A stretch of DNA of 64,000 nucleotides from a phage, in sequence record OZ336096.1, one strand, 5' to 3'. Positions 6,341-63,778 of this stretch are shown one piece after another. The first letter of the stretch is position 1. Each line of letters opens with the position of its first letter. The notes under the pieces are model-generated. The model ran no database searches. It had not been told where the DNA came from and worked only from the letters and a program-made list of their open reading frames with translations. The translations under genes and the position numbers were made by a program.

Positions 6341-6895
6341 TCAATGTACCTCATACCAGCTCTTACCAACCTTTGCTGTACCAGTTACAAGTGTTTCTTT
6401 CCTCAAACCTAAGTTTTTTGAAGCTTGTCCATACATCCAGTCAGCAATTGCTTTCATATCCTGTGTCATACCCTCTGGACATTCCCAACTATTTTCATCG
6501 TGATATGCCAGAAGTAACCTTGCTCCGATAGCTGGTTTTCGAGCATTCAGTTTTGTCAGGCCATCTTCACAGGCTTTTCTTGCTGCTAGGTTGATGGCCT
6601 CATTCTGAATCTGTGCTTCCGAACTCATCAGGAGGTAGTTCAGTAGTTTATGTGGAGATTTGCACCATATCCATGCTCCAGCGACCCTGATATAACCACC
6701 TTTAGCAATTGAAGAATTCTTCCCAAAAACCTCTTCCAGAGCCTTTTTAGACGCCTTAAAATCGGCTTCTAAGCTATCAAGTAACTTCTTAATCTTTGGC
6801 AGACGCATATAGTAAGTTTGTTTAGTCAATGCACCTTCTTCCGTAGATGATGCTTTGATAGTTTTTGCAAACTTCTCGTCACCTGCACCGAACAA
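6341..6895 (-). CDS. DNA polymerase (family A), C-terminal exon/fragment
   Basis: Frame opens after a TGA as ..PDVLFGAGDEKFAKTIK (second half of motif B) and contains LLLAYHDENSWECPEG (motif C HDE). Confidence 0.7.
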   Translation of the reverse strand: MFGAGDEKFAKTIKASSTEEGALTKQTYYMRLPKIKKLLDSLEADFKASKKALEEVFGKNSSIAKGGYIRVAGAWIWCKSPHKLLNYLLMSSEAQIQNEAINLAARKACEDGLTKLNARKPAIGARLLLAYHDENSWECPEGMTQDMKAIADWMYGQASKNLGLRKETLVTGTAKVGKSWYEVH

Positions 6896-7160
6896 TACAT
6901 CTGGTCAATACACTCGCAAGGTGTACCAGTTCTCTTATGAACTTCTCCGCATTTCTACGGAGTGTCGGACTATATCACGTAGTAGTAATACTACCGTTGC
7001 ACTTGGGAATGGTCATTAGCTTACCACCCTACTCTACTCAGTTCATACATTAAGTATGCTTTTCGATAGTCTCTGAACGTTCCTCTTAAGAGGCTTCGCT
7101 GCTGATTACCATATCTTTTAAGACTTAGGCTTCCAGCAATTCACAACGTTTTACATGCGC
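6896..7160 (-). other. intervening sequence in DNA polymerase gene, putative small ORF-less group I intron (boundaries approximate)
   Basis: Upstream ORF stops at 7125 just after ..RKKSKNGIYAS (start of motif B); motif resumes at ~6898; RNA-sense sequence has GATATAGTCCGACACTCCGTAGAAATGCGGAG resembling the P9 region of the nrdD intron. Confidence 0.5.
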
Positions 7161-9308: not shown

Positions 9309-9565
9309 TTTTACTCCCTCTAAAATCATTAACCACATACATTACTGCAAAAAATTATAAAAAGCAAGTTGACAATACACTTGACAAGGTGTTAATCTTT
9401 GCGAAGTGGGTTTTTACTTAAAAGGTTACTTAACAGTTTAACTATACAGATACTTTAAAACTCTTAAAAGATTATTTAATAGCTTTTAAAAAGCTTTAAA
9501 GTATAACGTATAGAATACGTTAAGATAAAAGATTAAAACTTAATAGTTACTTAAAAGAGGCTTAC

Positions 9566-22490: not shown

Positions 22491-23687
22491 ATGAACAAAG
22501 TACAAATTATTAAAAAGAATGGCTCACTTGAAGAACCGGATATCAAAAAAGTTTTAGTAGCAGTCACAAAGTCAGCTAACAGGGTTGGTTATAAAGAGCT
22601 TCCACCAGATGTTACTCAAGCCCTTGAGTCAGCATTTATGAGGATTCTGGTAAAATCTACTAAGCAGAATAATTTACTCGTTTCAGTAAATGATATTCAC
22701 AGTATTGTTGAAGGTGCTTTGGCAGAGGTCAATCACGAGATTTATGAGTCTTACTCAACATACAGAAATTACCGTAAAGAGGTTGCTCAAAATTGGGACG
22801 AACTCTACCAGAAGACTAAAGATACACTCTTCTTAGGTGACCGTGAAAATGCTAACTTTGACAGCAGTTTAATTTCTACGAAAGGTTCAATTATCCGTGG
22901 TTACCTGACTAAAGAAATCTTTAAACAGTATCATCTAACACCAGAGGAACTTGAAGCCATTGAGAAAGGCTTTATCTATATCCACGATTTGAGAGACCTG
23001 ATTTTTGGTGGTATTAACTGTTGCCTGTTTGACATTGGTAAAGTACTAAAAGGTGGCTTTGAAATGTCCGGCATTGAGTACTGTGAACCTAAATCTGTAC
23101 TGTCAGCGTTGCAGGTTATCGGTGACGTAGTACTTTCAGCAACTGCACAGCAATTTGGTGGATTTACTTTAGCAGAGATTGATAAGGTACTTGTACCGTA
23201 TGCTAAGAAGTCTCTACGCTATCATGCTGAGAAAGCAGCATCTTACGGTATTCCTAAAGAACATTACCATAATTATGTCATGGAGCAGCTACAGATTGAA
23301 TTAACTCAAGGTTTCCAGTCACTAGAGATGAAGCTAAATACTGTACCTTGTAGCCGTGGTGATTTCGCATTCACAACTTTAACATTTGGTTTACTTGACT
23401 CAGACATGTCTAATGAAGACAACCGACTACAATACATGATTGCAAACACCATTCTTGATGTTCGCATGAATGGACAAGGTAAGAGCAAGAAGCCTGTTGT
23501 ATTCCCTAAACTGGTTTATATTCATGACCAGAAGAGACACGATGAGAATATCTGTCAAGGTCAACTGTACAGTAAAGCTATTGAGTGTTGCTCTAAAGCT
23601 ATGTATCCAGATTTCTTAAGTGTATCTGGTCATGGTGCTGTAGCAGAGGCTTTTGAGCGTTCTGGCAAGGTAATTTCACCGATGGGT
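22491..23687 (+). CDS. nrdD: anaerobic ribonucleoside-triphosphate reductase, exon 1
   Basis: N-terminal ATP-cone; ORF ends ..VISPMG followed by in-frame TAA that I interpret as the first codon of the intron. Confidence 0.8.
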
Positions 23688-24003
23688 TAACAGGCTCTAT
23701 AGCTCATCTAAAACGTGCCTAAACAGGGAAACTCTACAGATGTAGACAATCCTGTGCTAAATGATGTACGATGTAAGAAACTATACAACATAGGAGTCTT
23801 ACATGCCAAATAACTTCGAATATGAGTTTGAATACATCTAAATGCCGAACGACTAACCGTGATGAATGTAGCGGTGTAGGGTCAAGCGACTCGAAATGGT
23901 ACGCTACTTAGAAATAAGTAGAAGATATAGTCTGGACTTACTGGCGACAGTAAGCAGCTTGAATAAAGCGGGGTAAGCTTAGCGAACTTACCTGAACAAC
24001 AAG
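23688..24003 (+). other. group I intron (ORF-less) interrupting nrdD
   Basis: 316 nt between exons; exon 1 ends in T, intron ends in G; contains GACAATCCTGTGCTAAAT, GGGTCAAGCGACTCGAAATGG, AGATATAGTCTGG, GGGGTAAG..CCTGAACAACAAG, which closely resemble core elements of the T4 td/nrdD introns as I remember them. Confidence 0.75.
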
Positions 24004-24951
24004 TGTAGAGCGTTTTTATCACCATACCATAACGAATATGGTGAAGAGTTTTATGTAGGTCGTGCTAATATTGGTGCTGTATCTTTGAACTTACCAATGA
24101 TTTACCAGTATTCTAAAGAGAATGGTTTAGATTTCTGGAAAGAGCTTGATAAGTACCTAGAGATGATTCGCAGCTTCCACAAGAAACGCTACGAAATGAT
24201 TGCTAATATGCCAGCAAGTTCTAACCCTCTTGCATTTACACAAGGTGGTCTGTACAAAGGGACTAAGAAACCTACTGATAAGGTTGGCTGGGATATTGTG
24301 AAGTCCTTCACAGCTTCTTTTGGGGTTACTGCACTAGACGAGCTATCTGTTCTTGCTGAAGGTAAGCGACTTCATGAAGTTGGAAGCTGTAGTTTTGCAT
24401 ATGATGTTCTGGAATATATCAACATAAAGACTGAAGAGTTTAAAAATGAAGATGGTTTCTTATATGCAGTCTATGGCACTCCAGCAGAATCACTTTGTGG
24501 AACTCAGCTAAAACAGTTCAGAGATATGTTTGGCGTTATCAAAGGTGTTTCTGATAAAGAATACTTTACAAATAGTTTCCATATGAATGTTGCAGCAGAC
24601 ATTACACCATTTGAGAAGCAGGACTTAGAAGAACCTTTCTTCCATATCTGTAGAGGTGGCAGAATCCAGTATGTAAGGGTAGCTAACCCAGAAAACTTAC
24701 CAGCACTTAAAAGTTGTATTACAAGAGGGATGTTGAAAGGTTTCTATCAGGGACTTAACTTTGACTTAGCAATCTGTGAACATTGTGGTAACAGACCAAA
24801 GGCTGATGTTGAAGAATGTGAGGTTTGCCATTCACACGATATCTCTGTGATTAACAGGGTGTGTGGGTACTTGTCATTCACAAAAATTAAAGGTCAGTCT
24901 CGAATGAATGACGCTAAGATGGCAGAAATTAAGGATAGGGTTTCTATGTAA
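24004..24951 (+). CDS. nrdD: anaerobic ribonucleoside-triphosphate reductase, exon 2
   Basis: Frame open from 23998; CRAFLSPY..FYVGRANIGAVSLNLP; C-terminal Zn site CEHCGN..CEVCHSHD and glycyl-radical motif RVCGYL. Confidence 0.8.
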   Translation, partial: CRAFLSPYHNEYGEEFYVGRANIGAVSLNLPMIYQYSKENGLDFWKELDKYLEMIRSFHKKRYEMIANMPASSNPLAFTQGGLYKGTKKPTDKVGWDIVKSFTASFGVTALDELSVLAEGKRLHEVGSCSFAYDVLEYINIKTEEFKNEDGFLYAVYGTPAESLCGTQLKQFRDMFGVIKGVSDKEYFTNSFHMNVAADITPFEKQDLEEPFFHICRGGRIQYVRVANPENLPALKSCITRGMLKGFYQGLNFDLAICEHCGNRPKADVEECEVCHSHDISVINRVCGYLSFTKIKGQSRMNDAKMAEIKDRVSM

Positions 24952-57024: not shown

Positions 57025-58440
57025 ATGAGCGAATTATTTAAACATGCGCACCTTCATGCAGGTCGAACTGAAAATGGTGCTGTAAACCATACTTCATCAA
57101 TGTCTGCTCTTGTAGACTTTTACAAAGCTGCTGGTTCAAGCCGTAGCAACGTAGAAATCTTACCAGACCTGTTCTACAAAGCTTTGCGTGAAGATGTTGA
57201 TGTTGCAGTTCGTATTTTGCTTCACATGCGAGATGTACGAGAAGGTATGGGTGAGCGTAAAGCCTTCAGAACTGTTTTACTTCAAGCAATCGAAGATAAA
57301 GTTTTAGAGCCTACACAGGTTCTTCGTATTATGGATAAGATTGCAGAACTCGGTCGTTTTGATGACTTCAAAATCTTCGTGGGTACTCGTTTCGAGACAG
57401 ATGCCTTCAAGCATTTAGAAGCAGCATTACTAGACCCTGCAACAGCAGGTTTGGCAGCTAAGTGGTTACCACGAGTCAAACCACGTCATAAGCAGTTTGT
57501 AAAACGTTTCTGTAAGTTTGCCAACTTGAGTGAGAAAGAGTACCGCACACTGTTGTCTGCACTATCTGATACAGTTGAGCAAAAAATCTCTGCTAATGAT
57601 TTTGGTAAGATTGACTACAGCAAGATTCCTTCACTTGCTGCTGCACGTTACCAGAAGCTGTTTAACCGCAAGGATGGAGAACGCTACAAAGCTTACATTG
57701 AGTCCTTATCAAAGGGTGAGACTAAGATTAATGCTGGTGCTGTTTACCCATACGATGTGATTAAATCTGTTAAGCATGGTAATGCAGATGTTGCTAATGA
57801 GCAGTGGAAAGCACTACCAAACTGGATGGCAGAGGGTGAAAACATCTTGTGTATGACTGATGTTTCAGGCTCAATGTCTTGGGTGAATCTTGGTTCAATC
57901 ACCGCCCTTGATATTGGTGTATCACTTGCCTTGTATGTAGCAGAACGTAATACAGGTTGCTTTAAGGATGAGTTAATGGTTTATTCAACAAACCCTTACT
58001 TCATCGAACTGAGTGGTGATTTACGAAACCGTCATCGTCAGGTGATGCGACATGTTGAATATGGCTCAACTAACTTACAAGCAGCTTTTGACCGCATTCT
58101 TGAGACAGGTAAAAGAAATAACTTGACTCAGAAAGATATGCCAAGTAAGCTTATCATCTTCTCCGATATGGAGTTCAATCAGGTTGATGGAGCTAACGGT
58201 CGTACAAACTTTGAAGCAATTCAGAGTAAGTACAAAAAAGCTGGATATGAGATGCCACAACTGGTATTCTGGTACTTAGCAAACCGTAATGGTACTTGCG
58301 AAGTGTCTGTTAAGGATAACGGTGTAGCAATGGTATCTGGTTTCTCTCCAGCCACTTTAAAAGCTCTGCTTGGTGGTGAGAAGTTTGACCCAATCAGCGT
58401 AATGCTCAAAGCAGTAATGATTGACCGTTATATCTGGTAA
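57025..58440 (+). CDS. von Willebrand factor A domain protein with N-terminal helical domain (possibly Ro60/TROVE-like)
   Basis: 471 aa; MIDAS-like DVSGSM in ILCMTDVSGSMSW and downstream vWA-like pattern; helical N-terminal ~270 aa. Confidence 0.5.
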   Translation: MSELFKHAHLHAGRTENGAVNHTSSMSALVDFYKAAGSSRSNVEILPDLFYKALREDVDVAVRILLHMRDVREGMGERKAFRTVLLQAIEDKVLEPTQVLRIMDKIAELGRFDDFKIFVGTRFETDAFKHLEAALLDPATAGLAAKWLPRVKPRHKQFVKRFCKFANLSEKEYRTLLSALSDTVEQKISANDFGKIDYSKIPSLAAARYQKLFNRKDGERYKAYIESLSKGETKINAGAVYPYDVIKSVKHGNADVANEQWKALPNWMAEGENILCMTDVSGSMSWVNLGSITALDIGVSLALYVAERNTGCFKDELMVYSTNPYFIELSGDLRNRHRQVMRHVEYGSTNLQAAFDRILETGKRNNLTQKDMPSKLIIFSDMEFNQVDGANGRTNFEAIQSKYKKAGYEMPQLVFWYLANRNGTCEVSVKDNGVAMVSGFSPATLKALLGGEKFDPISVMLKAVMIDRYIW

Positions 58441-58458: not shown

Positions 58459-58487
58459 TTGACAATGTGTTTGATACCCTTTAATAT
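58459..58487 (+). promoter_or_regulatory. sigma70-like promoter upstream of tRNA cluster
   Basis: TTGACA - 17 nt - TAATAT; weaker second candidate at 58550-58578. Confidence 0.45.
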
Positions 58488-58605
58488 GTTCTACATAGAA
58501 ACGAAACGAGAGCTTTTCTAAGATACTGAAAAATATTTTAAAAAAGTTCTTGACAATCACTAAAAAATAATGTTAAAGTGGTTACATAGAGTTTGAAAAG
58601 TTTAT

Positions 58606-58682
58606 CTCTGTTTAGCTCAGCTTGGTAGAGCGTTCCGTTTGGGGCGGTAAGGCCGGAGGTTCAAGTCCTCCAACAGAGACCA
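58606..58682 (+). tRNA. tRNA-Pro (anticodon UGG)
   Basis: 7 bp acceptor CTCTGTT/AACAGAG, D-arm TAGCTCAGCTTGGTAGAGC, T-loop GGTTCAAGTCC, CCA encoded; hand-folded. Confidence 0.6.
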
Positions 58683-58689
58683 AATTAAT

Positions 58690-58767
58690 GTTCCAGTAGA
58701 CAAAACGGTAAAGTCACCACTCTTTCAAAGTGGATATTTGAGGGTTCAAATCCCTTCTGGAACGCCA
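58690..58767 (+). tRNA. tRNA-Glu (UUC)
   Basis: Acceptor GTTCCAG/CTGGAAC, anticodon loop CTTTCAA, T-loop GGTTCAAATCC. Confidence 0.7.
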
Positions 58768-58858
58768 GTTTTGACAGAAGACCAATTGCAGCAAACTTAA
58801 TCTTATTCATCTGACACGAAATCGGACAAAGAAGAGATTTGGTCTGGTCATTAAGAAT

Positions 58859-58935
58859 TGCGGGTATAGAGAAAGGGCGTCTCACATGTCTCATTAGCAT
58901 GGTATCGGCAGGTTCGACTCCTGCACCCGCCTCCA
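58859..58935 (+). tRNA. tRNA-Met (CAU)
   Basis: Anticodon stem CATGT/GCATG, loop CTCATTA, T-loop GGTTCGACTCC; 1-72 mismatch. Confidence 0.55.
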
Positions 58936-59012
58936 ATTTTGCAGAAGACCGTATTCAGCAACAAAATACTTTTTGCGGATAAAAGAAAAAACACGGTCTG
59001 GCAATGTATTAA

Positions 59013-59089
59013 GGTTAGGAAGCACATAAGGTATGTGCGGTCGCCTGTTAAGCGAATGGCACAGGGTTCGAATCCCTGACTAACCGCCA
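59013..59089 (+). tRNA. tRNA-Asn (GUU)
   Basis: Acceptor GGTTAGG, loop CTGTTAA, T-loop GGTTCGAATCC. Confidence 0.65.
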
Positions 59090-59098
59090 AATTTAAAT

Positions 59099-59186
59099 GT
59101 GTCGTTATCCCGTAGATGGTAGCGGTGGGGACTGTAAATCCCTTGTCATTGAGACTCGGTAGGTTCGACTCCTACACGGCACACCA
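59099..59186 (+). tRNA. tRNA-Tyr (GUA), long variable arm
   Basis: Acceptor GTGTCGT/ACGGCAC, loop CTGTAAA, long variable arm, T-loop GGTTCGACTCC. Confidence 0.65.
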
Positions 59187-59192
59187 AATAAA

Positions 59193-59270
59193 GGTTATGT
59201 AGTTTAATCTGGTTAAAATACTCCCCTGTCACGGGAGATGATGAGGGTTCAAATCCCTTCGTAACCGCCA
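59193..59270 (+). tRNA. tRNA-Asp (GUC)
   Basis: Acceptor GGTTATG/CGTAACC, AC stem CTCCC/GGGAG, loop CTGTCAC. Confidence 0.7.
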
Positions 59271-59493
59271 AATTATAATAAGTATTTCAAGATGATGTTT
59301 TGAGAGGGCTATTTAGCCCCTCCCTTAAAGAGTTCTTACGAGTATTCTTTAAAGGAGCAGAAGACCAAATTCAGCAAGTACGTATGATATTTTCAAGCCA
59401 ATTTAATTTTGAAAAATTTAAAACTTGGTCTGGCTCAACAGATTTACAGAAGACCGTTTACAGCAAAACTTAAACAATCTATTTCTCCGGTAA

Positions 59494-59556
59494 AGAAAAG
59501 GCGAAGGTTCGATTCCTTCACTCGGCAGATGTCGAGTTGGTGTAATGGTAGCACTT
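59494..59556 (+). pseudogene. tRNA-like halves in permuted order (3' half then 5' half)
   Basis: GGCGAAGGTTCGATTCCTTCACTCGGCAG (T-arm + 3' acceptor) immediately followed by GTCGAGTTGGTGTAATGGTAGCAC (5' acceptor + D-arm); the two acceptor strands are complementary to each other. Confidence 0.35.
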
Positions 59557-59727
59557 AAGATGATAAACAACGGTCTGGTAATTATCTTTGTAGATAAGTT
59601 ATTAAGCTTACCTGTGAGTATGCGACCACAAAGGGTGAAAGGGTAAATTCTAGATTTAAACCCAACAAGGCACATCGCTACAGACCTTAAGCAAGTCTGG
59701 GTAGCTTATCTACAAAGATAATTTAAT

Positions 59728-59803
59728 GGAAGTGTAGCAGAATGGTGATGCGGCAGACTTTTAATCTGACAGGCGATGGGTTCGAATCCCTCCACTTCTA
59801 CCA
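59728..59803 (+). tRNA. tRNA-Lys (UUU)
   Basis: Acceptor GGAAGTG/CACTTCT, loop CTTTTAA, T-loop GGTTCGAATCC. Confidence 0.6.
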
Positions 59804-59807
59804 ATAT

Positions 59808-59884
59808 GGTTCAGTCGCAGATAAGGTAATGCAGGGGTCTCATAAGCCCTATGAATGTGGGTTCGATTCCCATCTGAACCTCCA
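59808..59884 (+). tRNA. tRNA with CAU anticodon (Met or lysidine-Ile)
   Basis: Acceptor GGTTCAG/CTGAACC, loop CTCATAA, T-loop GGTTCGATTCC. Confidence 0.6.
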
Positions 59885-59885
59885 A

Positions 59886-59961
59886 GCTGGTATAGTTAAG
59901 AAGGTTATAACACTCCCCTGATAAGGGAACATCGGTGGTTCGATTCCACCTACCAGTACCA
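59886..59961 (+). tRNA. tRNA-Ile (GAU)
   Basis: Acceptor GCTGGTA/TACCAGT, loop CTGATAA, T-loop GGTTCGATTCC. Confidence 0.65.
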
Positions 59962-60298
59962 ATTTCAATAAAGTTGTTGACATTGAGATGTGACCACTTT
60001 TTAGTAACTAAAATACTTCATAATATGTATAATTCAAACACCAATACATGAGCGTTAGACGTAACACAATGTGGGGAAATTTGTTGTACATATTCTGAAT
60101 AGTTTTCGTTGCGTAGCGTCTATTTTGCAAATTTAAAATAAATGCAAACGACAATGTTTTTCTGGCAGTAGCTTGATAGGCTAAACACCAGTGAGGTCTT
60201 CCAATCCCTCATCAAAGAATTTGGCGTACTAGCCCACGGTATGATTAATAAAGTGGGCATCTTTAAGGGCTTTCTAAGAGAGTCTTTAAAGATAATTA

Positions 60299-60380
60299 CG
60301 GGGCGTATCTCAGCTGTCTTCTAAACAGCCGTTAACCGAGTAAGTGGAGTATGCGGGTTCGAGTCCTGCCGCCTCGACCA
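60299..60380 (+). tRNA. atypical tRNA-like gene, possibly tRNA-Arg (UCU)
   Basis: Acceptor CGGGGCG/CGCCTCG + ACCA, T-loop GGTTCGAGTCC, perfect anticodon hairpin GCTGT-CTTCTAA-ACAGC, but no recognisable D-arm and a long segment after the anticodon arm. Confidence 0.35.
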
Positions 60381-60523
60381 ATTTAGTTAGCAGATTACTT
60401 AGACGACCTAAGCGGGTCTTCCTGTAGGGAGGTGGTCTGTATCTCATGTTTTCCAGAACATGTAAATAATCTGAGAAGAAGCTTGACAGTGTTGAGATAA
60501 TACGGTAAGCTTCGAATTATAGT

Positions 60524-60606
60524 ATGGGACGATGTTAAGACTCTAAGGCATGAGCAACGGCTTCCAACACCGTTTCAAAGGGGTTCAACTCCTCCGTCCC
60601 ATGCCA
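60524..60606 (+). tRNA. atypical tRNA-like gene, possibly tRNA-Trp (CCA)
   Basis: Acceptor ATGGGAC/GTCCCAT + GCCA, T-loop GGTTCAACTCC; anticodon region AACGG-CTTCCAACA-CCGTT allows a 7 nt loop (CCA) or a 9 nt loop; extra nucleotides in the D region. Confidence 0.4.
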
Positions 60607-60619
60607 AAGTCTTATTAGG

Positions 60620-60709
60620 GGTAGGTAGCGGCTAATGGTAGCCAAACTGTCTTGAAAACAGTTGCCACTGTAGAGATACGGTGAGGGTTCGACTCCTTTA
60701 CTTACCGCC
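60620..60709 (+). tRNA. tRNA-Ser (UGA), long variable arm
   Basis: AC stem ACTGT/ACAGT, loop CTTGAAA, long variable arm, T-loop GGTTCGACTCC; 3' end GCC (CCA not fully encoded). Confidence 0.65.
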
Positions 60710-60862
60710 TAATAAGATTTAAAGCCAAGCTTCATTCGGATGTTGCTTTGGTATCCCTCGTGTTGTCGAACACACTAATAAAGCACCTAGTAGGTGTCAC
60801 GGAGAAGAGATAATATCAAGCTCTCCAAAGGTCCTAGTCACCGGATTAAACAAGACTATGCA

Positions 60863-60884
60863 AAGACCTTTTTAGGTCTTTTTA
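60863..60884 (+). terminator. intrinsic terminator
   Basis: AAGACCTTTTTAGGTCTT hairpin followed by TTT. Confidence 0.5.
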
Positions 60885-60962
60885 GAGGGCTTCTAAGGTT
60901 ATTGCAGCTTGTTGTGGAACCTTGTTGCTTAGGTTCTTAGAAGTTCTCTAAAAAGATTTAAT

Positions 60963-61040
60963 GGGAGATTGACGGTAATTGGTAAACCTACCATCCTTAG
61001 AAGTTGGTGTTTGAGGGTTCGAATCCCTTGTCTCCTACCA
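60963..61040 (+). tRNA. tRNA with UAG anticodon (Leu-type), short variable arm
   Basis: Acceptor GGGAGAT/GTCTCCT, loop CTTAGAA, T-loop GGTTCGAATCC, discriminator A. Confidence 0.5.
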
Positions 61041-61047
61041 AATTAAT

Positions 61048-61123
61048 GCAGGTGTAGCAAAATGGTTATGCGGCTGACTCTTAATCAGTAAGACGATGGG
61101 TTCAATTCCCTCCACCTGTACCA
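61048..61123 (+). tRNA. tRNA-Lys (CUU)
   Basis: Acceptor GCAGGTG/CACCTGT, loop CTCTTAA, T-loop GGTTCAATTCC. Confidence 0.6.
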
Positions 61124-61129
61124 AACATT

Positions 61130-61205
61130 GGGGATGTAGTTTACATGGTTAAAACATAAGTTTTGCAAACTTAAGTACAGGGTTCAATTCCCTGCTTCTC
61201 CACCA
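61130..61205 (+). tRNA. tRNA-Ala (UGC)
   Basis: AC stem TAAGT/ACTTA, loop TTTGCAA, T-loop GGTTCAATTCC. Confidence 0.65.
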
Positions 61206-61211
61206 ATTAGT

Positions 61212-61286
61212 GCATCCATAGTTTAAACGGGAAAATTACAGTCTTCCAAACTGAGGTTGAGGGTTCGATTCCCTCTGGATGCTCCA
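61212..61286 (+). tRNA. tRNA-Gly (UCC)
   Basis: Perfect acceptor GCATCCA/TGGATGC, loop CTTCCAA, T-loop GGTTCGATTCC. Confidence 0.7.
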
Positions 61287-61293
61287 AATTAAT

Positions 61294-61370
61294 GCTGCTT
61301 TCGTATAATTGGCTATTACACATCCCTTGTAAGGATGGAAATGCAGGTTCGAGTCCTGTGAGCAGCACCA
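61294..61370 (+). tRNA. tRNA-Thr (UGU)
   Basis: Acceptor GCTGCTT/GAGCAGC, AC stem CATCC/GGATG, loop CTTGTAA, T-loop GGTTCGAGTCC. Confidence 0.75.
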
Positions 61371-61465
61371 ATTCAGAGGTCAAGTGAAAGACCGCTGGTG
61401 TCAACTGAAGACCGTAACAAATTCCACGGAGTTGAGTTAGCGGCACAACTTCAGACCTCTTCCAT

Positions 61466-61540
61466 ACTCGCTTAGTTTATATGGTAAAACATCACCCTTA
61501 CAAGATGAAGAAAAAGGTTCAAGTCCTTTAGTGAGTACCA
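61466..61540 (+). tRNA. tRNA-Val (UAC)
   Basis: Acceptor ACTCGCT/AGTGAGT, loop CTTACAA, T-loop GGTTCAAGTCC. Confidence 0.65.
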
Positions 61541-61541
61541 T

Positions 61542-61619
61542 GTTCCAGTATCCCAATTGGCAGAGGATGCAAGCTCAAACCTTGTACTAGTGACGGTTCG
61601 AATCCGTCTTGGAACACCA
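61542..61619 (+). tRNA. tRNA with CAA anticodon (Leu-type), short variable arm
   Basis: Acceptor GTTCCAG/TTGGAAC, AC stem GCAAG/CTTGT, loop CTCAAAC, T-loop GGTTCGAATCC, discriminator A. Confidence 0.5.
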
Positions 61620-61638
61620 ATTTTAAGAGGCTATTTAG

Positions 61639-62196
61639 ATGAGATATTTGAAGTATGCTTCATGGATTTTCCTAGCTTTACTAGAACCATTTGCAGCAAC
61701 CCTAGCAGTCATCTTAGCACCTTTCGTAGTTCCATTCTACAGTGAGAAGAAAGGACATCTACCTTTTGGATTCAGATGGATGGAGACCTATGACAACCCG
61801 ATTGATGGTGATGAAGGCCACGTTAAAAGATGGGCTAAGGTTAGAAAGATTGGTAAGCTGGGTGTCTACATGCAGAGAGTTGGATGGCTCTGGAGAAACA
61901 AAGCTTATAACTTCTCTTACCATGTATTAGGAAGAGATGTAAAAGATGTTACTAAGTGGAAAGGTAATATCAACGTAAGTTCTGACCCTGAAGATAATCA
62001 GACTGGTTATCTCCTAATGTGGAACAGTAATGCTTGGGGATTATTCGCTTTTATCCCATCAATTAAAGTCTTTGGTAAACAGTTTTACTGGAGAATTTAT
62101 ATTGGATGGAAACTAAAAAGTGTTGTCCCAGAAGAAAGAGCATTCTCAAGGGGAAGAGTTATGTTGGCATTCTTTATTCATCCACTGAGAAAGTAA
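61639..62196 (+). CDS. hypothetical membrane-anchored protein embedded in the tRNA cluster
   Basis: 185 aa ORF with AAGAGG RBS; N-terminal hydrophobic helix. Confidence 0.5.
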   Translation: MRYLKYASWIFLALLEPFAATLAVILAPFVVPFYSEKKGHLPFGFRWMETYDNPIDGDEGHVKRWAKVRKIGKLGVYMQRVGWLWRNKAYNFSYHVLGRDVKDVTKWKGNINVSSDPEDNQTGYLLMWNSNAWGLFAFIPSIKVFGKQFYWRIYIGWKLKSVVPEERAFSRGRVMLAFFIHPLRK

Positions 62197-62204
62197 AGAT
62201 TTAA

Positions 62205-62280
62205 AGGGGATTAGTTTACAAGGTTAAAACCTCGGTCTTTGAAATCGAAGAAGTTGGTTCAATTCCAACATCCCCCGCCA
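62205..62280 (+). tRNA. tRNA-Gln (UUG)
   Basis: D-stem GTTT/AAAC, AC stem TCGGT/ATCGA, loop CTTTGAA, T-loop GGTTCAATTCC. Confidence 0.6.
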
Positions 62281-62282
62281 AT

Positions 62283-62361
62283 GCTCCATTACTCCAATTG
62301 GCAGAGAGGCCAGACTTAAAATCTGTGTTATGTATCGGTTCGAATCCGATATGGAGTACCA
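62283..62361 (+). tRNA. tRNA with UAA anticodon (Leu-type), short variable arm
   Basis: Acceptor GCTCCAT/ATGGAGT, loop CTTAAAA, T-loop GGTTCGAATCC, discriminator A. Confidence 0.5.
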
Positions 62362-62366
62362 AATTT

Positions 62367-62442
62367 AGCGGTATAGCATAACTGGCAATGCAGCAGTCTC
62401 TGAAGCTGTCCTATTAAGGTTCAAATCCTTATGCCGCTGCCA
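62367..62442 (+). tRNA. tRNA-Gln (CUG)
   Basis: Acceptor AGCGGTA/TGCCGCT, loop CTCTGAA, T-loop GGTTCAAATCC. Confidence 0.6.
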
Positions 62443-62473
62443 CTTCTAAGGTTTCTTACGAGAGTCCTTAAAT

Positions 62474-62549
62474 GTGGCCTTATCATAAATGGTAATGACC
62501 CATGCTGTGAACATGGTCTATACGGGTTCAAATCCCGTAGGTCACCCCA
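62474..62549 (+). tRNA. tRNA-His (GUG)
   Basis: D-stem TCAT/ATGA, AC stem CCATG/CATGG, loop CTGTGAA, T-loop GGTTCAAATCC. Confidence 0.75.
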
Positions 62550-62555
62550 ATTTAT

Positions 62556-62631
62556 AGTCCAAGTGGCTTATATGGTTAAAGCGCGTGTCTGAAAAACATG
62601 AGAAGAGGGTTCAAATCCCACTGGACTACCA
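62556..62631 (+). tRNA. tRNA-Phe (GAA)
   Basis: Acceptor TAGTCCA/TGGACTA, loop CTGAAAA, T-loop GGTTCAAATCC. Confidence 0.6.
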
Positions 62632-62647
62632 ATTTCAAAGGTGCTTA

Positions 62648-63382
62648 ATGAAAGAGATGACAGAACAAGGTAAGGAGATTTTTAATCTCTTAAAAACCGG
62701 TAAAGGGTTTTCTAATCCCCTTATTACTGGTGCAGCAGTTCTAGGTGGAACCGTGGCTGCCTCTACATCACTTGTAAGCTCTATTAGCTCTGTAACAGAC
62801 CCTACAATGAAGGATAAACTTGTTGCTGCTGGACTTACAACAGTCCTTCTAAACAGCTTTACAACAAGCCTGACAAGCACTACAGCAACTACTAAGACCC
62901 TAACAGACTATGGTCAAAAATCTATTGATGAGTTTTCATCACGTATGCAGGTAGCAAAGGGATACTCCAATGTTATGGGTGCAGCAGGAGAACAAGTTGG
63001 TTGTACACCATTCAGTGGTATTATGGGTGTTGCTACAGAGTATGGTCAAAAAGCTATTGACATGATGAACAGTACACTAGATAGTGTTAATGGTGTGTTA
63101 AGTGACTTACAGGACGCTATTGACAAGGGTCTTGATACTGTTTCTGATTTAGCTAACCAAGCTGTCAGTAAGATTAATGAAGGTATCTCAAAGATTACAG
63201 CTTATGCAGATGAAGTTGTGCAGATGATTGAAGAAGAGGCTGCCCTTATTGCAGAGTACCTTAAAACGAATATCAATGGGTTCTTAGCAGGTATCTTACC
63301 AGACTGGTTTGATGATGCTTGTAAAACTGGTGTAATTGACACTATTGCAACACCAGAAATGAAGAACGCATTACAGAAATAA
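62648..63382 (+). CDS. hypothetical Ser/Thr-rich protein embedded in the tRNA cluster
   Basis: ORF 62585-63382 trimmed to ATG 62648 so it no longer overlaps tRNA-Phe; hydrophobic segment ITGAAVLGGTVAAS; stop abuts tRNA-Ser. Confidence 0.45.
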   Translation: MKEMTEQGKEIFNLLKTGKGFSNPLITGAAVLGGTVAASTSLVSSISSVTDPTMKDKLVAAGLTTVLLNSFTTSLTSTTATTKTLTDYGQKSIDEFSSRMQVAKGYSNVMGAAGEQVGCTPFSGIMGVATEYGQKAIDMMNSTLDSVNGVLSDLQDAIDKGLDTVSDLANQAVSKINEGISKITAYADEVVQMIEEEAALIAEYLKTNINGFLAGILPDWFDDACKTGVIDTIATPEMKNALQK

Positions 63383-63383
63383 T

Positions 63384-63476
63384 GGAAGATTAACCCTAAA
63401 AGGTAAGGGAGCAGTTTGCTAAACTGCCAGTAGCTGAGAAATCGGTGTACCAGTTCAAGTCTGGTATCTTCCTCCA
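63384..63476 (+). tRNA. tRNA-Ser (GCU), long variable arm
   Basis: Perfect acceptor GGAAGAT/ATCTTCC, AC stem GCAGT/ACTGC, loop TTGCTAA, long variable arm, T-loop AGTTCAAGTCT. Confidence 0.8.
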
Positions 63477-63480
63477 ATTT

Positions 63481-63555
63481 GAATCCGTGACAGAAATGGA
63501 TATGTGCCTGTCTGCAAAACAGGTTTATAAGGGTTCGAGTCCCTTCGGATTCTCC
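63481..63555 (+). tRNA. tRNA-Cys (GCA)
   Basis: Perfect acceptor GAATCCG/CGGATTC, AC stem CCTGT/ACAGG, loop CTGCAAA, T-loop GGTTCGAGTCC. Confidence 0.8.
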
Positions 63556-63593
63556 AAGTTATTTTACTCTCTCTCAATTAAAATAATAATAAT

Positions 63594-63654: not shown

Positions 63655-63778
63655 CAGAGTTATACTTTATAGGAAGACTTATACAGTATGTCTCTGACGT
63701 ACATTGTGGTTTCTCCTTGACGGTCTCTGTGCCGTCTTTTTTAAGGGGAAACAATATTAATTATTTGGAGAAAACATA

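What the first reader, a model, noticed from the sequence alone, without database searches (positions are those of the whole stretch)
58606..63555. tRNA cluster that appears to encode a complete 20-amino-acid set
Hand-folding gives about 26 tRNA genes covering Pro, Glu, Met, Asn, Tyr, Asp, Lys (UUU, CUU), Ile (GAU plus a second CAU), Arg, Trp, Ser (UGA, GCU), three Leu-type anticodons, Ala, Gly, Thr, Val, Gln (UUG, CUG), His, Phe and Cys. The cluster has promoters upstream and strong terminators at the end, and two protein genes are embedded in it. A full set would make the phage largely independent of host tRNA pools. Anticodon assignments are manual and several need confirmation.
Basis: seen in the sequence. 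Interest (0 to 1): 0.5.

Follow-up and report, generated by a model that had tools for sequence, protein, structure and literature searches.

The report
Phage tRNA array hiding odd RNAs
This is the known tRNA gene cluster of a Felix O1-like phage, but its arginine and tryptophan members are conserved, oddly built tRNAs that standard finders miss, and unannotated tmRNA-like and Y-RNA-like genes lie between the tRNAs.

Summary
The window comes from a Felixounavirus (98% identical to Escherichia phage mio). ARAGORN finds 24 tRNA genes at 58606-63556. Arg and Trp are not called.

Both exist as conserved, non-canonical tRNA-like genes.
- 60299-60380 has anticodon UCU, no D arm and an invariant 23-nt extra region. 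It has 26 distinct homologues in many large enterobacterial phages: 99.4% of cells paired, 13 of 20 pairs compensatory. It occupies the same slot as a canonical tRNA-Arg(UCU) in sister phages.
- 60524-60606 has anticodon CCA, an 8/4 acceptor/T helix, a 9-nt anticodon loop and G73-CCA. It occurs only in Ounavirinae; 7 of 20 pairs are compensatory.

So "anticodons for all 20 amino acids" holds. "Independence from host tRNAs" does not.

The gaps hold three further unannotated things:
- a tmRNA-like RNA without a tRNA-like domain (tag ANDNVFLAVA, two covarying pseudoknots), shared with unrelated phages, prophages and ~108-kb plasmids;
- four Y-RNA-like units next to a protein with a Ro60 fold;
- long double-stranded hairpins.

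The cluster is known; these embedded elements appear undescribed. No function has been tested.

The parts
57025..58440 (+). Gene for a Ro60-like (TROVE + vWA fold) protein, 471 aa, directly upstream of the RNA array
   Evidence: Pfam DUF2828 + DUF7788. PHROG 850 'RNA-binding protein'. AlphaFold model with pLDDT 89.3. The top 11 Foldseek PDB hits are all Ro60/TROVE structures (9KOP, 1YVR, 2NVO), E 3e-9 to 7e-7, TM 0.48-0.67.
58459..58487 (+). Sigma-70-type promoter-like site (TTGACA-17-TAATAT)
58550..58579 (+). Sigma-70-type promoter-like site (TTGACA-18-TAAAGT, with TG extension)
58606..58682 (+). tRNA-Pro (UGG)
   Evidence: ARAGORN; Rfam 57.7 bits
58690..58767 (+). tRNA-Glu (UUC)
   Evidence: 60.6 bits
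58772..58850 (+). Y-RNA-like unit U1: bulged closing helix UGAC-AGA-AGACC ... GGUCU-G-GUCA, plus the CAGCAA motif
58859..58935 (+). tRNA with anticodon CAU (#1). It has a U1-C72 mismatch, a shifted D stem and the loop CUCAUUA. The isotype (Met or Ile2) is unresolved.
   Evidence: ARAGORN only; no Rfam match. Conserved with compensatory changes in Michonne and Arno18. Cove score 28.9 in Felix O1 (PMC3185647).
58939..59004 (+). Y-RNA-like unit U2 (UUGC-AGA-AGACC ... GGUCU-G-GCAA)
59013..59089 (+). tRNA-Asn (GUU)
   Evidence: 48 bits
59099..59186 (+). tRNA-Tyr (GUA), with a long variable arm
   Evidence: only the tRNA-Sec model matches, 29.6 bits; listed as 'pseudo (Tyr)' in Felix O1 (PMC3185647)
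59193..59270 (+). tRNA-Asp (GUC)
   Evidence: 65.2 bits
59355..59436 (+). Y-RNA-like unit U3 (GAGC-AGA-AGACC ... GGUCU-G-GCUC)
59444..59581 (+). Y-RNA-like unit U4. The same bulged helix encloses a tRNA-like domain: an anticodon-arm-like hairpin, a T arm (GAAGG UUCGAUU CCUUC), an acceptor-like hairpin closed by a loop, and a D arm (GUGU AAUGGUA GCAC).
   Evidence: the acceptor-like hairpin covaries: ACUCGGC/GUCGAGU, ACCCUUC/GAAGGGU, ACACG/CGUGU. Rfam tRNA partial match, 22 bits.
59584..59719 (+). Structured RNA closed by a 20-bp helix
   Evidence: -44.3 kcal/mol, z -4.57, 0 of 200 shuffles fold as well
59728..59803 (+). tRNA-Lys (UUU)
   Evidence: 54.4 bits
59808..59884 (+). tRNA with anticodon CAU (#2); isotype unresolved
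   Evidence: 54.3 bits
59886..59961 (+). tRNA-Ile (GAU)
   Evidence: 62.3 bits
59977..60005 (+). Promoter-like site ahead of the tmRNA-like RNA. The -35 box is TTGACA. The -10 box is TTTAGT here and TATAGT in the sister phages.
   Evidence: sequence; alignment with mio and JohannRWettstein; not flagged by the scan
60102..60258 (+). tmRNA-like RNA without a tRNA-like domain. Tag reading frame 60144-60173 (ANDNVFLAVA) with no start codon. Stops TGA TAG at 60174-60179 sit in a hairpin. Pseudoknot A is 60192-60224 and pseudoknot B is 60225-60258.
   Evidence: 40 distinct homologues carry 8 tag variants, with changes concentrated at third codon positions. Both pseudoknots covary. Weak Rfam tmRNA matches.
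60259..60294 (+). 16-bp hairpin between the tmRNA-like RNA and the UCU tRNA
   Evidence: z -4.35
60299..60380 (+). Non-canonical tRNA with anticodon UCU (Arg AGA/AGG codons). It has a 7-bp acceptor stem, the 7-nt linker UAUCUCA in place of the D arm, a 5-bp anticodon stem with loop CUUCUAA, a 23-nt conserved extra region, a 5-bp T arm, and A73-CCA.
   Evidence: Rfam tRNA 31.2 bits in a local search; homologues score 40 and 30.7 bits. Alignment A3 and pair counts. A canonical tRNA-Arg(UCU) occupies the same slot in JohannRWettstein.
60524..60606 (+). Non-canonical tRNA with anticodon CCA (Trp). It has an 8-bp acceptor stem (A1-U72), an 11-nt linker (7 nt if the bulged G-C pair counts as D stem), a 3-bp D stem, a 5-bp anticodon stem with a 9-nt loop, a 4-bp T stem, and G73-CCA.
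   Evidence: 7 of 20 pairs compensatory. MFE z -2.87. Not annotated as a tRNA in any of the rows listed out of 252 matching phage records.
60620..60709 (+). tRNA-Ser (UGA)
   Evidence: 33.2 bits
60872..60961 (+). 27-bp hairpin, RNase III-substrate-like
   Evidence: -41.4 kcal/mol, z -4.17
60963..61040 (+). tRNA-Leu (UAG)
   Evidence: 40 bits
61048..61123 (+). tRNA-Lys (CUU)
   Evidence: 56.9 bits
61130..61205 (+). tRNA-Ala (UGC)
   Evidence: 62.7 bits
61212..61286 (+). tRNA-Gly (UCC)
   Evidence: 59.6 bits
61294..61370 (+). tRNA-Thr (UGU)
   Evidence: 54.7 bits
61375..61460 (+). Structured spacer closed by GAGGUC/GACCUC
   Evidence: z -3.03
61466..61540 (+). tRNA-Val (UAC)
   Evidence: 60 bits
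61542..61619 (+). tRNA-Leu (CAA)
   Evidence: 43.6 bits
61639..62196 (+). Embedded protein gene, 185 aa, DUF7338 / PHROG 2143, function unknown
62205..62280 (+). tRNA-Gln (UUG)
   Evidence: 56.6 bits
62283..62361 (+). tRNA-Leu (UAA)
   Evidence: 47.5 bits
62367..62442 (+). tRNA-Gln (CUG)
   Evidence: 57 bits
62474..62549 (+). tRNA-His (GUG)
   Evidence: 53.3 bits
62556..62631 (+). tRNA-Phe (GAA)
   Evidence: 43.7 bits
62648..63382 (+). Embedded protein gene, 244 aa, DUF7217 / PHROG 2114. Relatives annotate it as a membrane protein or holin.
63384..63476 (+). tRNA-Ser (GCU)
   Evidence: 46.2 bits
63481..63556 (+). tRNA-Cys (GCA)
   Evidence: 56 bits
63594..63653 (+). Long hairpin (GCCCUG...CAGGGC) followed by a T-run; terminator-like
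   Evidence: read from the sequence; its loop is too long for the scan
63719..63745 (+). Intrinsic-terminator-like hairpin plus TTTTTT

Best explanation
The region is the RNA-gene island of a Felix O1-like phage. Host sigma-70 RNA polymerase transcribes it as precursors. These are presumably cut by host RNase P, RNase Z/E and RNase III, the last at the long hairpins (inferred). It yields 24 ordinary tRNAs plus two structurally aberrant but evolutionarily maintained tRNAs, so an anticodon exists for each of the 20 amino acids. The UCU species (60299-60380) lacks a D arm and carries a conserved 23-nt extra region. I infer that this region rebuilds the tRNA core, and that the RNA decodes the AGA/AGG codons that this AT-rich phage overuses. 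It is the allelic alternative to a canonical tRNA-Arg(UCU) in sister phages. The CCA species (60524-60606) keeps the known E. coli tRNA-Trp identity features (CCA anticodon, G73, A1-U72) on an 8/4 acceptor/T scaffold. I infer that it decodes UGG. The tRNAs supplement the host pool, and possibly replace it when host tRNAs are attacked; they do not make the phage independent of it. Other small-RNA genes sit between the tRNAs. Four are Y-RNA-like units, and I propose they partner the Ro60-fold protein encoded just upstream. One is a promoter-driven tmRNA-derived RNA that has a tag reading frame and pseudoknots but no tRNA-like domain. It probably interferes with or exploits trans-translation; the mechanism is unknown. 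Shown here: gene presence, anticodons, covariation, distribution across phages, and the protein fold. Inferred: aminoacylation, decoding, processing, RNA-protein pairing, and any role in trans-translation.
For: Identity of the cluster: 98% identical to Escherichia phage mio, and 239 phage records cover at least 80% of it. Canonical tRNAs.

UCU tRNA. Infernal aligns it to the tRNA model with the D arm deleted. Across 26 distinct homologues, 99.4% of cells are paired, 13 of 20 pairs have compensatory changes, and 0 of 500 shuffles reach the observed values. The CUUCUAA loop, the UAUCUCA linker and most of the extra region are invariant. The discriminator is a purine in 25 of 26 sequences. JohannRWettstein has a canonical tRNA-Arg(UCU) at the same position between identical flanks. 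About 117 records at 95% identity or more carry the odd allele, and 145 records carry the canonical one. The tRNA arrays of PHB05 (16 tRNAs) and 121Q (6) carry this element and no canonical Arg-UCU within the regions scanned. AGA+AGG make up 37% of Arg codons in the window's ORFs. The Felix O1 paper noted that an expected AGA tRNA was missing (PMC3185647).

CCA tRNA. Nine distinct sequences from four Ounavirinae lineages give an RNAalifold consensus with 7 of 20 pairs compensatory. These include the two top acceptor pairs, the D stem and four anticodon-stem pairs. G-CCA is conserved.

tmRNA-like RNA.. It also occurs in 329 of 5426 E. coli genomes, mostly on ~108-kb plasmids. It therefore cannot be the universal host ssrA.

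Y-like units. All 56 distinct variants have 4 of 4 outer pairs, in the forms UUGC/GCAA, UUAC/GUAA, UGAC/GUCA and GAGC/GCUC. U4's tRNA-like domain is supported. The Ro60 fold of the adjacent protein is supported.
Against: There are no expression, processing or aminoacylation data. ARAGORN rejects both odd tRNAs. The whole-window Rfam scan misses both, and the Trp-like gene never reaches a tRNA score. Bacterial translation is not known to use D-arm-less tRNAs, and the main E. coli ArgRS determinant A20 lies in the missing D loop (general knowledge). The extra region and linker of the UCU tRNA are invariant, so their structure has no covariation support. The small hairpin in the extra region varies on one side only. 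The Trp-like alignment has only nine distinct sequences, all from one subfamily. One variant weakens the 4-bp T stem (G to U). An invariant anticodon loop would also be expected of a decoy. The Y-like helix motif (CAGAAGACC) differs from the published GNCGAAN0-1G motif (PMC4201824), and Rfam's YrlA model gives no match. No tRNA-like domain was found for the tmRNA-like RNA, so it cannot carry out trans-translation by the known mechanism.
Confidence: 0.68

Rival explanations
1. This is an ordinary codon-supplementing tRNA cluster of 24 genes. The Arg-like and Trp-like sequences are decaying tRNA pseudogenes, and the spacers are only processing signals. The set therefore covers 18 amino acids.
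For: ARAGORN calls neither gene. The whole-window Rfam scan calls neither. Felix O1 was published with 22 tRNAs and two 'pseudo' genes (PMC3185647). Neither gene is annotated as Arg or Trp in any listed row of the matching records.
Against: Pseudogenes do not keep 99.4% pairing with 13 compensatory pairs across unrelated phage families while holding the anticodon loop invariant. They do not keep G73-CCA plus compensatory acceptor, D-stem and anticodon-stem changes across genera. The UCU element alternates with a canonical tRNA-Arg(UCU) at one locus.
Confidence: 0.1
2. The two odd tRNA-like RNAs are mimics rather than decoders. They could be decoys that soak up host anticodon nucleases or other tRNA-targeting defences. 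They could also be ligands of the Ro60-like protein, as tRNA-like Y RNAs are.
For: The invariant anticodon loop and the altered body fit a decoy that must be recognised at the anticodon but need not be translated. tRNA-mimicking Y RNAs and a Ro60-fold protein are encoded in the same island. Phage tRNAs that neutralise tRNA-targeting defences are documented (general knowledge).
Against: In many Felixounaviruses the slot holds a fully canonical tRNA-Arg(UCU). That points to a shared decoding role. The UCU element also occurs in phage groups in which the presence of this Ro60-like gene was not examined. A purine at position 73 and an encoded CCA are kept. The Trp-like RNA keeps the TrpRS identity set (plus general knowledge).
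Confidence: 0.2
3. The tmRNA-like segment is an inert fragment of a bacterial ssrA gene picked up by imprecise prophage excision. Phage recombination then spread it passively.
For: ssrA is a common integration site, and ssrA fragments in prophages are reported (PMC9004378). No tRNA-like domain accompanies the segment. Rfam tmRNA scores are far below the gathering score.
Against: Thirteen distinct nucleotide versions encode eight tag variants. Substitutions fall at third positions in 9 of 10 codons and at first or second positions in only 3 codons. Two pseudoknots each show compensatory changes. The element sits behind its own promoter-like site in Felixounavirus and in the ~108-kb plasmid L107. 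It is not similar to the E. coli host ssrA, because only 329 of 5426 genomes match.
Confidence: 0.1

Closest known systems
tRNA gene clusters of Felix O1 and other Ounavirinae (Whichard et al. 2010, PMC3185647; Sf14, PMC12482277)
   Same: Same locus, gene order and anticodons. The window is 96-98% identical to many deposited Felixounavirus genomes. Published counts are 22 tRNAs (Felix O1) and 26 tRNAs for 19 amino acids (Sf14).
   Different: The publications list no Trp tRNA. The Felix O1 paper notes that an AGA decoder is missing. Neither the D-arm-less UCU gene, nor the CCA gene, nor the tmRNA-like and Y-like RNAs are described in these papers or annotated as such in the listed rows of the matching records.
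D-arm-lacking mitochondrial tRNA-Ser(AGY) of metazoa (PMC4013460)
   Same: A tRNA with acceptor, anticodon and T arms in which a short linker replaces the D arm.
   Different: The phage RNA works, if it works, with bacterial ribosomes and EF-Tu. It carries a conserved 23-nt extra region between the anticodon and T arms, and it has a UCU anticodon. There is no evidence of common descent.
tRNA-Sec (8/5) and allo-tRNAs (8/4, 9/3) (general knowledge; Rfam RF01852)
   Same: The Trp-like gene has an 8-bp acceptor stem and a 4-bp T stem, 12 stacked pairs in all. Its only Rfam match is tRNA-Sec (16.9 bits).
   Different: It has no long variable arm and no 6-bp D stem. Its anticodon is CCA rather than UCA. 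The score is far below the gathering score of 47. It is not a member.
tmRNA (SsrA): one-piece, two-piece, and the tRNA-like-domain-only form of mycobacteriophage DS6A (PMC4131195, PMC11915505, PMC9004378)
   Same: A resume codon (GCA or GCU) with no start codon, preceded by U at -5 and A at -4. A ten-codon tag beginning AND/ANE and ending in hydrophobic residues plus Ala. Stop codons in a hairpin loop. H-type pseudoknots downstream. The resume region nearly matches the Rfam permuted-tmRNA consensus.
   Different: No alanine-accepting tRNA-like domain is present in any of the contexts inspected (Felixounavirus, Kuttervirus, P22-like/lambdoid, ~108-kb plasmid). The tag ends in LAVA rather than LAA. 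It is the mirror image of the DS6A form, which keeps only the tRNA-like domain.
Bacterial and phage Y RNAs (YrlA) with Ro60/Rsr (Chen et al. 2014, PMC4201824; Thermus phage Ro60-Yrl, PMC12135203)
   Same: Small RNAs are encoded next to a Ro60-fold gene. Their 5' and 3' ends form a bulged helix with a purine-rich motif on the 5' strand. One of them contains T and D arms around an acceptor-like hairpin.
   Different: The protein is DUF2828/DUF7788 and is related to Ro60 only at the fold level (no PDB sequence match). The motif is CAGAAGACC rather than GNCGAAN0-1G. U4 also keeps an anticodon-arm-like hairpin. The Rfam YrlA model does not match.

Membership tests
Canonical bacterial-type tRNA (the 24 ARAGORN genes) | Cloverleaf recognised by a tRNA finder or covariance model, with a 7-nt anticodon loop | tested here: met
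   24 of 24 by ARAGORN. 22 of 24 at or above the Rfam gathering score. CAU#1 and Tyr are found by ARAGORN only.
Canonical tRNA (UCU gene, 60299-60380) | A D arm (3-4 bp stem plus a loop with G18 G19) between the acceptor and anticodon arms | tested here: not met
   Infernal replaces 15 model positions with 4 nt. The invariant 7-nt linker UAUCUCA has no covarying partner.
Canonical tRNA (UCU gene, 60299-60380) | Acceptor, anticodon and T helices maintained by compensatory change, a 7-nt anticodon loop with U33 and a purine at 37, and a 3' CCA | tested here: met
   helices are 98.9-100% paired, with 6, 4 and 3 compensatory pairs. The loop CUUCUAA is invariant. CCA is encoded in the window.
tRNA-Arg identity (E. 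coli ArgRS) | A20 in the D loop, C35, U36 or G36, and A73 or G73 (general knowledge) | tested here: inconclusive
   C35, U36 and a purine at 73 are present. A20 cannot be assigned because there is no D loop. Charging cannot be tested with these tools.
Canonical tRNA (CCA gene, 60524-60606) | 7-bp acceptor stem, 5-bp T stem, 2-nt linker at positions 8-9, 7-nt anticodon loop, covariance-model score at or above 29 bits | tested here: not met
   The RNAalifold consensus has an 8-bp acceptor stem, a 4-bp T stem, an 11-nt linker before the 3-bp D stem (7 nt if a bulged G-C pair is counted) and a 9-nt loop. There is no tRNA-model match; tRNA-Sec scores 16.9 bits.
tRNA-Trp identity (E. coli TrpRS) | Anticodon CCA, G73, A1-U72 (general knowledge) | tested here: met
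   CCA and G73 are in all nine variants. Pair 1-72 is A-U (4 variants), G-U (4) or G-C (1). Charging itself was not tested.
tmRNA | An alanine-accepting tRNA-like domain (acceptor stem with G3-U70, T arm, CCA) linked to the coding part | tested here: not met
   ARAGORN finds no tmRNA in the window or in L003-L006. The adjacent UCU tRNA is an independent module. It occurs without the tmRNA-like RNA in PHB05 and SHEFM2K, G3-U70 is not conserved, and a canonical tRNA-Arg replaces it.
tmRNA | A tag reading frame without a start codon that resumes at an Ala codon, stop codon(s) in a hairpin, and flanking pseudoknots | tested here: met
   There are 8 tag variants of the form A[NK][DE][DEN]x[FY]LAVA. 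Substitutions fall at third positions in 9 of 10 codons. Pseudoknot A stem 2 covaries (CCAA-UUGG, CCGA-UCGG, CCAG-CUGG). Both stems of pseudoknot B covary.
tmRNA | Rfam covariance-model score at or above the gathering score (47 bits) | tested here: not met
   RF00023 scores 16.3 and 9.1 bits; RF04321 scores 20.4 and 12.3 bits.
Y RNA / YrlA with Ro60 | Encoded next to a Ro60 (TROVE + vWA) gene | tested here: met
   The 471-aa ORF ends 330 nt upstream of U1. Its model matches Ro60 structures over its full length. The similarity is at the fold level only.
Y RNA / YrlA with Ro60 | The 5' and 3' ends form a bulged helix carrying the conserved motif GNCGAAN0-1G (PMC4201824) | tested here: inconclusive
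   A bulged helix with a covarying outer stem is present in all 56 variants. The motif is CAGAAGACC, which is similar but not the published one.
Y RNA / YrlA with Ro60 | A tRNA-like domain with T and D arms in at least one Y RNA | tested here: met
   U4. The T arm and D arm are invariant and the acceptor-like hairpin covaries.
Y RNA / YrlA with Ro60 | Physical binding to the Ro60 protein | not testable with these tools
   Needs pull-down or CLIP.

The most novel reading that the evidence does not exclude
Three undescribed RNA classes may be at work in common enterobacterial phages. (1) A D-arm-less tRNA with a rebuilt core that bacterial ArgRS, EF-Tu and ribosomes accept and that decodes AGA. 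It occurs in Felixounavirus, Justusliebigvirus, 121Q-like jumbo phages and ~145-kb Klebsiella phages. (2) An 8/4 tRNA-Trp with a widened anticodon loop, which might also read UGA. (3) A widespread tmRNA-derived RNA without a tRNA-like domain, which phages, prophages and phage-plasmid-sized plasmids may use to manipulate ribosome rescue. All three sit beside a divergent Ro60/Y-RNA system.
Probability: 0.4. Interest if true: 0.85.

Novelty: new variant of a known kind. Interest (0 to 1): 0.66.

Why it matters
The cluster itself is textbook. Two of its members, if functional, would show that bacterial translation can use tRNAs lacking a D arm or built on an 8/4 scaffold. That matters for the rules of tRNA recognition, for tRNA engineering, and for how phages escape defences that target tRNAs. 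It also shows that routine annotation undercounts phage tRNA repertoires: the Felix O1 paper noted that an expected AGA decoder was missing, and this gene would fill that gap. The tmRNA-like RNA is present in about 1,000 phage records and in 6% of complete E. coli genomes. The Ro60-fold/Y-like pair would extend two RNA-surveillance systems into well-studied, therapy-relevant phages, where they can be tested genetically.

Tried and rejected
1. The tmRNA-like RNA plus the UCU tRNA as one tmRNA, with the tag upstream and the tRNA-like domain downstream. G3-U70 and A73 in the window suggested this. I rejected it for four reasons. The two modules occur separately in other phages. G3-U70 is not conserved. 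The UCU element has an invariant anticodon loop. A canonical tRNA-Arg can replace it without any change to the tag region.

2. The UCU gene as tRNA-Sec. It scores only 23 bits and the anticodon is wrong.

3. A permuted two-piece tmRNA that uses the T arm of tRNA-Ile. The Rfam RF04321 match is weak (20.4 bits, E 0.47), and I saw no complementary 5' acceptor strand when reading the sequence.

4. The tmRNA-like RNA as a fragment of host ssrA. Only 329 of 5426 E. coli genomes match it.

5. U4 as a circularly permuted tRNA gene that would be processed into a tRNA. Its anticodon-like loop is not conserved (CCGGUAA, CGGUAA, CUGGUAA, AGGGUAU). Its acceptor is closed by a loop, and there is no CCA.

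6. A 'strand-swapped D arm' for the UCU tRNA, in which CUC pairs with a GAG in the extra region. Only 3 bp are possible, all are invariant, and they clash with the small hairpin. This remains unresolved.

7. Sequence search of the 471-aa protein against the PDB gave nothing. Only the predicted fold revealed Ro60.

8. I searched for Trp-like homologues outside Ounavirinae with a gapped pattern. Only Ounavirinae contigs were returned.

9. Literature searches for a phage tmRNA-like RNA, Felix O1 with Ro60 or Y RNA, and D-arm-less phage tRNAs found no prior description. The library is open-access only, so absence there is not proof.

10. tRNAscan-SE was not available. I used ARAGORN and the Rfam tRNA covariance model instead.

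Full report
**What the window is.** The 5.3-kb stretch around the finding is 98% identical to Escherichia phage mio. It matches 351 phage records, mostly Felixounavirus and other Ounavirinae, and 239 of them cover at least 80% of it. G+C content is about 39%. This is the tRNA region of a Felix O1-like myovirus.

**Checking the observation.**
- ARAGORN finds 24 tRNA genes, all on the + strand between 58606 and 63556, and none elsewhere in the window.
- Rfam's tRNA covariance model passes its gathering score for 22 of them.
- It misses the first CAU gene (58859-58935). That gene has a U1-C72 mismatch, a shifted D stem and U37 in the loop CUCAUUA. It is conserved, with compensatory changes in Mooglevirus and in a Pectobacterium relative.
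- It also misses tRNA-Tyr, which matches only the tRNA-Sec model. Felix O1's authors listed that gene as 'pseudo (Tyr)' (PMC3185647).
- Two protein genes are embedded: 61639-62196 (DUF7338) and 62648-63382 (DUF7217).
- Two near-consensus promoters precede the array, and hairpins with T-runs follow it.
- The 24 genes cover 18 amino acids. Arg and Trp are not called.

**The 'Arg' gene (60299-60380).**
- *Architecture.* The sequence is CGGGGCG-UAUCUCA-GCUGU-CUUCUAA-ACAGC-(23 nt)-GCGGG-UUCGAGU-CCUGC-CGCCUCG-A-CCA. When a short stretch is searched, Infernal aligns it to the tRNA model at 31.2 bits. It deletes the whole D arm and inserts about 20 nt before the T arm.
- *Homologues.* Copies in PHB05 and in the jumbo phage SHEFM2K score 40 and 30.7 bits.
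- *Covariation.* Pattern scans of IMG/VR and the fetched phage loci gave 26 distinct sequences. On their gap-free alignment, 99.4% of cells are paired and 13 of 20 pairs show compensatory change (6 in the acceptor stem, 4 in the anticodon stem, 3 in the T stem). No shuffle or slid register comes close.
- *Invariant parts.* The 7-nt linker and the anticodon loop are invariant, and the 23-nt region (CGUUAAYCGAGUAANYGGAGUAU) is nearly so. Position 73 is a purine in 25 of 26 sequences.
- *An allelic alternative.* In JohannRWettstein the same slot, between identical flanks, holds a fully canonical tRNA-Arg(UCU). Roughly 117 records carry the odd allele at 95% identity or more, and 145 carry the canonical one. 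In mio an HNH endonuclease gene sits directly after the odd allele. That suggests homing-driven allele exchange (inference).
- *Presence in other arrays.* The element also sits in the tRNA arrays of PHB05 (16 other tRNAs) and 121Q. Neither array contains a canonical Arg-UCU gene in the regions scanned.
- *Annotation.* It is usually unannotated. Where annotated it appears as 'tRNA-OTHER', 'tRNA', 'tRNA-Val' (Streptomyces phage Yaboi) or, in 121Q, 'tRNA-Leu(taa)'.
- *Need for an AGA decoder.* AGA and AGG are 28% and 9% of Arg codons in 65 long ORFs of the window. By general knowledge that is far above E. coli usage. The Felix O1 paper remarked that a tRNA for AGA was expected but missing (PMC3185647).
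- *Conclusion.* I conclude that this is a maintained, D-arm-less AGA decoder. A decoy role cannot be excluded.

**The 'Trp' gene (60524-60606).**
- *Distribution.* The sequence is 100% identical in Felix O1. It is not annotated as a tRNA in any of the rows listed out of 252 matching records.
- *Consensus structure.* Nine distinct versions from Felixounavirus, Mooglevirus, Suspvirus and Pectobacterium phage Arno18 give an RNAalifold consensus. It has an 8-bp acceptor stem, an 11-nt linker, a 3-bp D stem with a GG-containing loop, a 5-bp anticodon stem, a 9-nt loop C-[Y-U-C-C-A-A-M]-M, a 4-bp T stem, and then G-CCA.
- *Covariation.* Seven of 20 pairs show compensatory change. These include pairs 1-72 and 2-71 (A-U/U-A to G-C/C-G), the middle D-stem pair, and four anticodon-stem pairs (AACGG/CCGUU to GUAAG/CUUAC to GUAGG/CCUAC).
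- *Stability.* The window copy folds better than all 200 shuffles (z -2.87).
- *Identity features.* Anticodon CCA, G73 and A1-U72 are the E. coli TrpRS identity set (general knowledge).
- *Weak points.* There are few sequences, all from one subfamily, and one variant weakens the T stem.
- *A speculation.* The unpaired C-A (or C-C) flanking the 7-nt loop recalls tRNA-Trp(CCA) variants with shortened anticodon stems that read UGA (abstract of PMC13092985). That is speculation only. TGA ends 15 of 65 ORFs here.

**How complete is the set?** Anticodons for all 20 amino acids are present. Sf14, a relative, is published as 26 tRNAs for 19 amino acids (PMC12482277). Independence from the host does not follow. 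CGU/CGC (52% of Arg) and GGU/GGC (76% of Gly) have no plausible phage decoder (plus wobble rules).

**A tmRNA-like RNA (60102-60258).**
- *Discovery.* A BLAST search of the 59962-60720 gap matched unrelated phages over about 120 nt. These include HK620 (between the late promoter pR'/qut and the terminator tQ), Kuttervirus, Klebsiella phages, Vibrio phage pYD38-A and a 72-kb Escherichia phage (vB_EcoP_ShWW44).
- *The tag.* The shared core reads ...AUAAAU GCA AAC GAC AAU GUU UUU CUG GCA GUA GCU UGA UAG, which encodes ANDNVFLAVA.
- *Coding signal.* Forty distinct copies encode eight tags of the form A[NK][DE][DEN]x[FY]LAVA. Substitutions fall at third positions in 9 of 10 codons and at first or second positions in only 3. 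One lineage uses GCU AAU for the first two codons, which removes the out-of-frame AUG. U at -5 and A at -4 precede the resume codon, as in E. coli SsrA (general knowledge).
- *Structure.* The stop codons lie in a hairpin loop. Two H-type pseudoknots follow, and both covary. In pseudoknot A, UGAGG/CCUCA pairs, and the loop CCRR pairs with YYGG in three matched forms. In pseudoknot B, CGCACU/GGUGUG has two compensatory pairs, and the second stem takes five different forms.
- *Rfam.* The permuted-tmRNA consensus around the resume codon is almost identical to the window sequence. All tmRNA scores are far below the gathering score.
- *No tRNA-like domain.* None was found in any context.
- *Distribution in E. 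coli.* The element occurs in 329 of 5426 complete E. coli genomes. Of the matched places, 237 are on plasmids; the listed ones are mostly about 107-116 kb and one is 183 kb. In one of them it follows a promoter-like sequence and precedes a tRNA cluster. It is therefore not the host ssrA gene.
- *Prior knowledge.* Known phage tmRNAs are complete or keep only the tRNA-like domain (PMC4131195, PMC11915505, PMC9004378). I found no description of a version lacking that domain.
- *Function.* How it works is unknown. My best guess is interference with, or use of, ribosome rescue.

**Y-RNA-like units and a Ro60-fold protein.**
- *The units.* Four spacer units (58772-58850, 58939-59004, 59355-59436, 59444-59581) share the design NNNC-AGA-AGACC...CAGCAA...GGUCU-G-GNNN.
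- *Covariation.* All 56 distinct variants collected have four outer pairs, in the forms UUGC/GCAA, UUAC/GUAA, UGAC/GUCA and GAGC/GCUC.
- *U4.* It encloses a T arm, an acceptor-like hairpin closed by a loop (three compensatory pairs), a D arm and an anticodon-arm-like hairpin whose loop is not conserved. This is the tRNA mimicry described for YrlA RNAs (PMC4201824).
- *The protein.* The gene just upstream (57025-58440, DUF2828 + DUF7788) gives a confident model (pLDDT 89.3). Its 11 best PDB matches are all Ro60 structures, including a phage Ro60.
- *Caveats.* Rfam's YrlA model does not match, and the helix motif differs from the published one. This is a well-supported hypothesis, not a demonstrated membership.

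**Other structure.** A 20-bp, a 27-bp and a 16-bp helix (59584-59719, 60872-60961, 60259-60294) fold far better than shuffled controls. They look like RNase III sites (inference).

**Verdict.** The 'complete set' reading is partly right, for an unexpected reason: the two missing amino acids are served, if at all, by non-canonical tRNAs. The island also carries unannotated tmRNA-like and Y-RNA-like genes. Everything beyond sequence, covariation, distribution and predicted fold remains to be tested.

Noticed in passing
window 6945-7177 (-) and 23604-23954 (+): There are two group I introns above the Rfam gathering score (64.5 and 52.7 bits). The first splits a family-A DNA polymerase gene (7125-9338 / 6341-6895), with an HNH-AP2 endonuclease ORF (5804-6337) beside it. 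The second splits nrdD (22491-23690 / 24085-24951). The Felix O1 genome paper reported no introns (PMC3185647).
   Followed up: partly
L002 (Escherichia phage JohannRWettstein) 5513-5605, equivalent to window 63384-63476: The long-arm tRNA-Ser(GCU) is identical to the window copy except for G34 to U. That gives a Ser-type body with the Arg anticodon UCU. It is annotated there as tRNA-Arg. It occurs in 1 of the 16 loci that contain this tRNA. It could be a missense-decoding variant or a sequencing error.
   Followed up: partly
L001 (Escherichia phage mio) 2493-2840; L101 (Michonne) 3973-4425: HNH homing-endonuclease genes are inserted directly next to tRNA genes in some relatives: after the odd UCU tRNA in mio, and before tRNA-Leu in Michonne. 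They are absent from the window.
   Followed up: no
L003 (HK620) 1280-1900; L020, L010, L017, L019, L063 (lambdoid contigs): In lambdoid late-leader regions the tmRNA-like element is flanked by complementary repeats (GUGCUCUUUCC / GGUAAGAGCAU). It sits in arrays of other stem-closed modules, some of which contain T-arm-like hairpins (for example L020, where a 19-bp stem encloses AGAGGGUUCGAAUCCCU). Their nature is unexplained.
   Followed up: no
L004 (Kuttervirus SenALZ1) 1250-1325 and 1690-1740: Unannotated tRNA-like fragments (a T arm plus a 3' strand, one ending in CCCA) flank the tmRNA-like element. ARAGORN calls neither. I did not establish whether they supply a tRNA-like domain in trans.
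   Followed up: no
window 60381-60521: The spacer between the UCU and CCA tRNAs folds unusually well (-41.1 kcal/mol, z -2.98). It is almost invariant among the three relatives aligned. Its function is unknown.
   Followed up: no
window 59977-60005: The promoter ahead of the tmRNA-like RNA has a consensus -35 box. Its -10 box reads TTTAGT in the window and TATAGT in mio and JohannRWettstein. Expression may therefore be weaker in this isolate.
   Followed up: no
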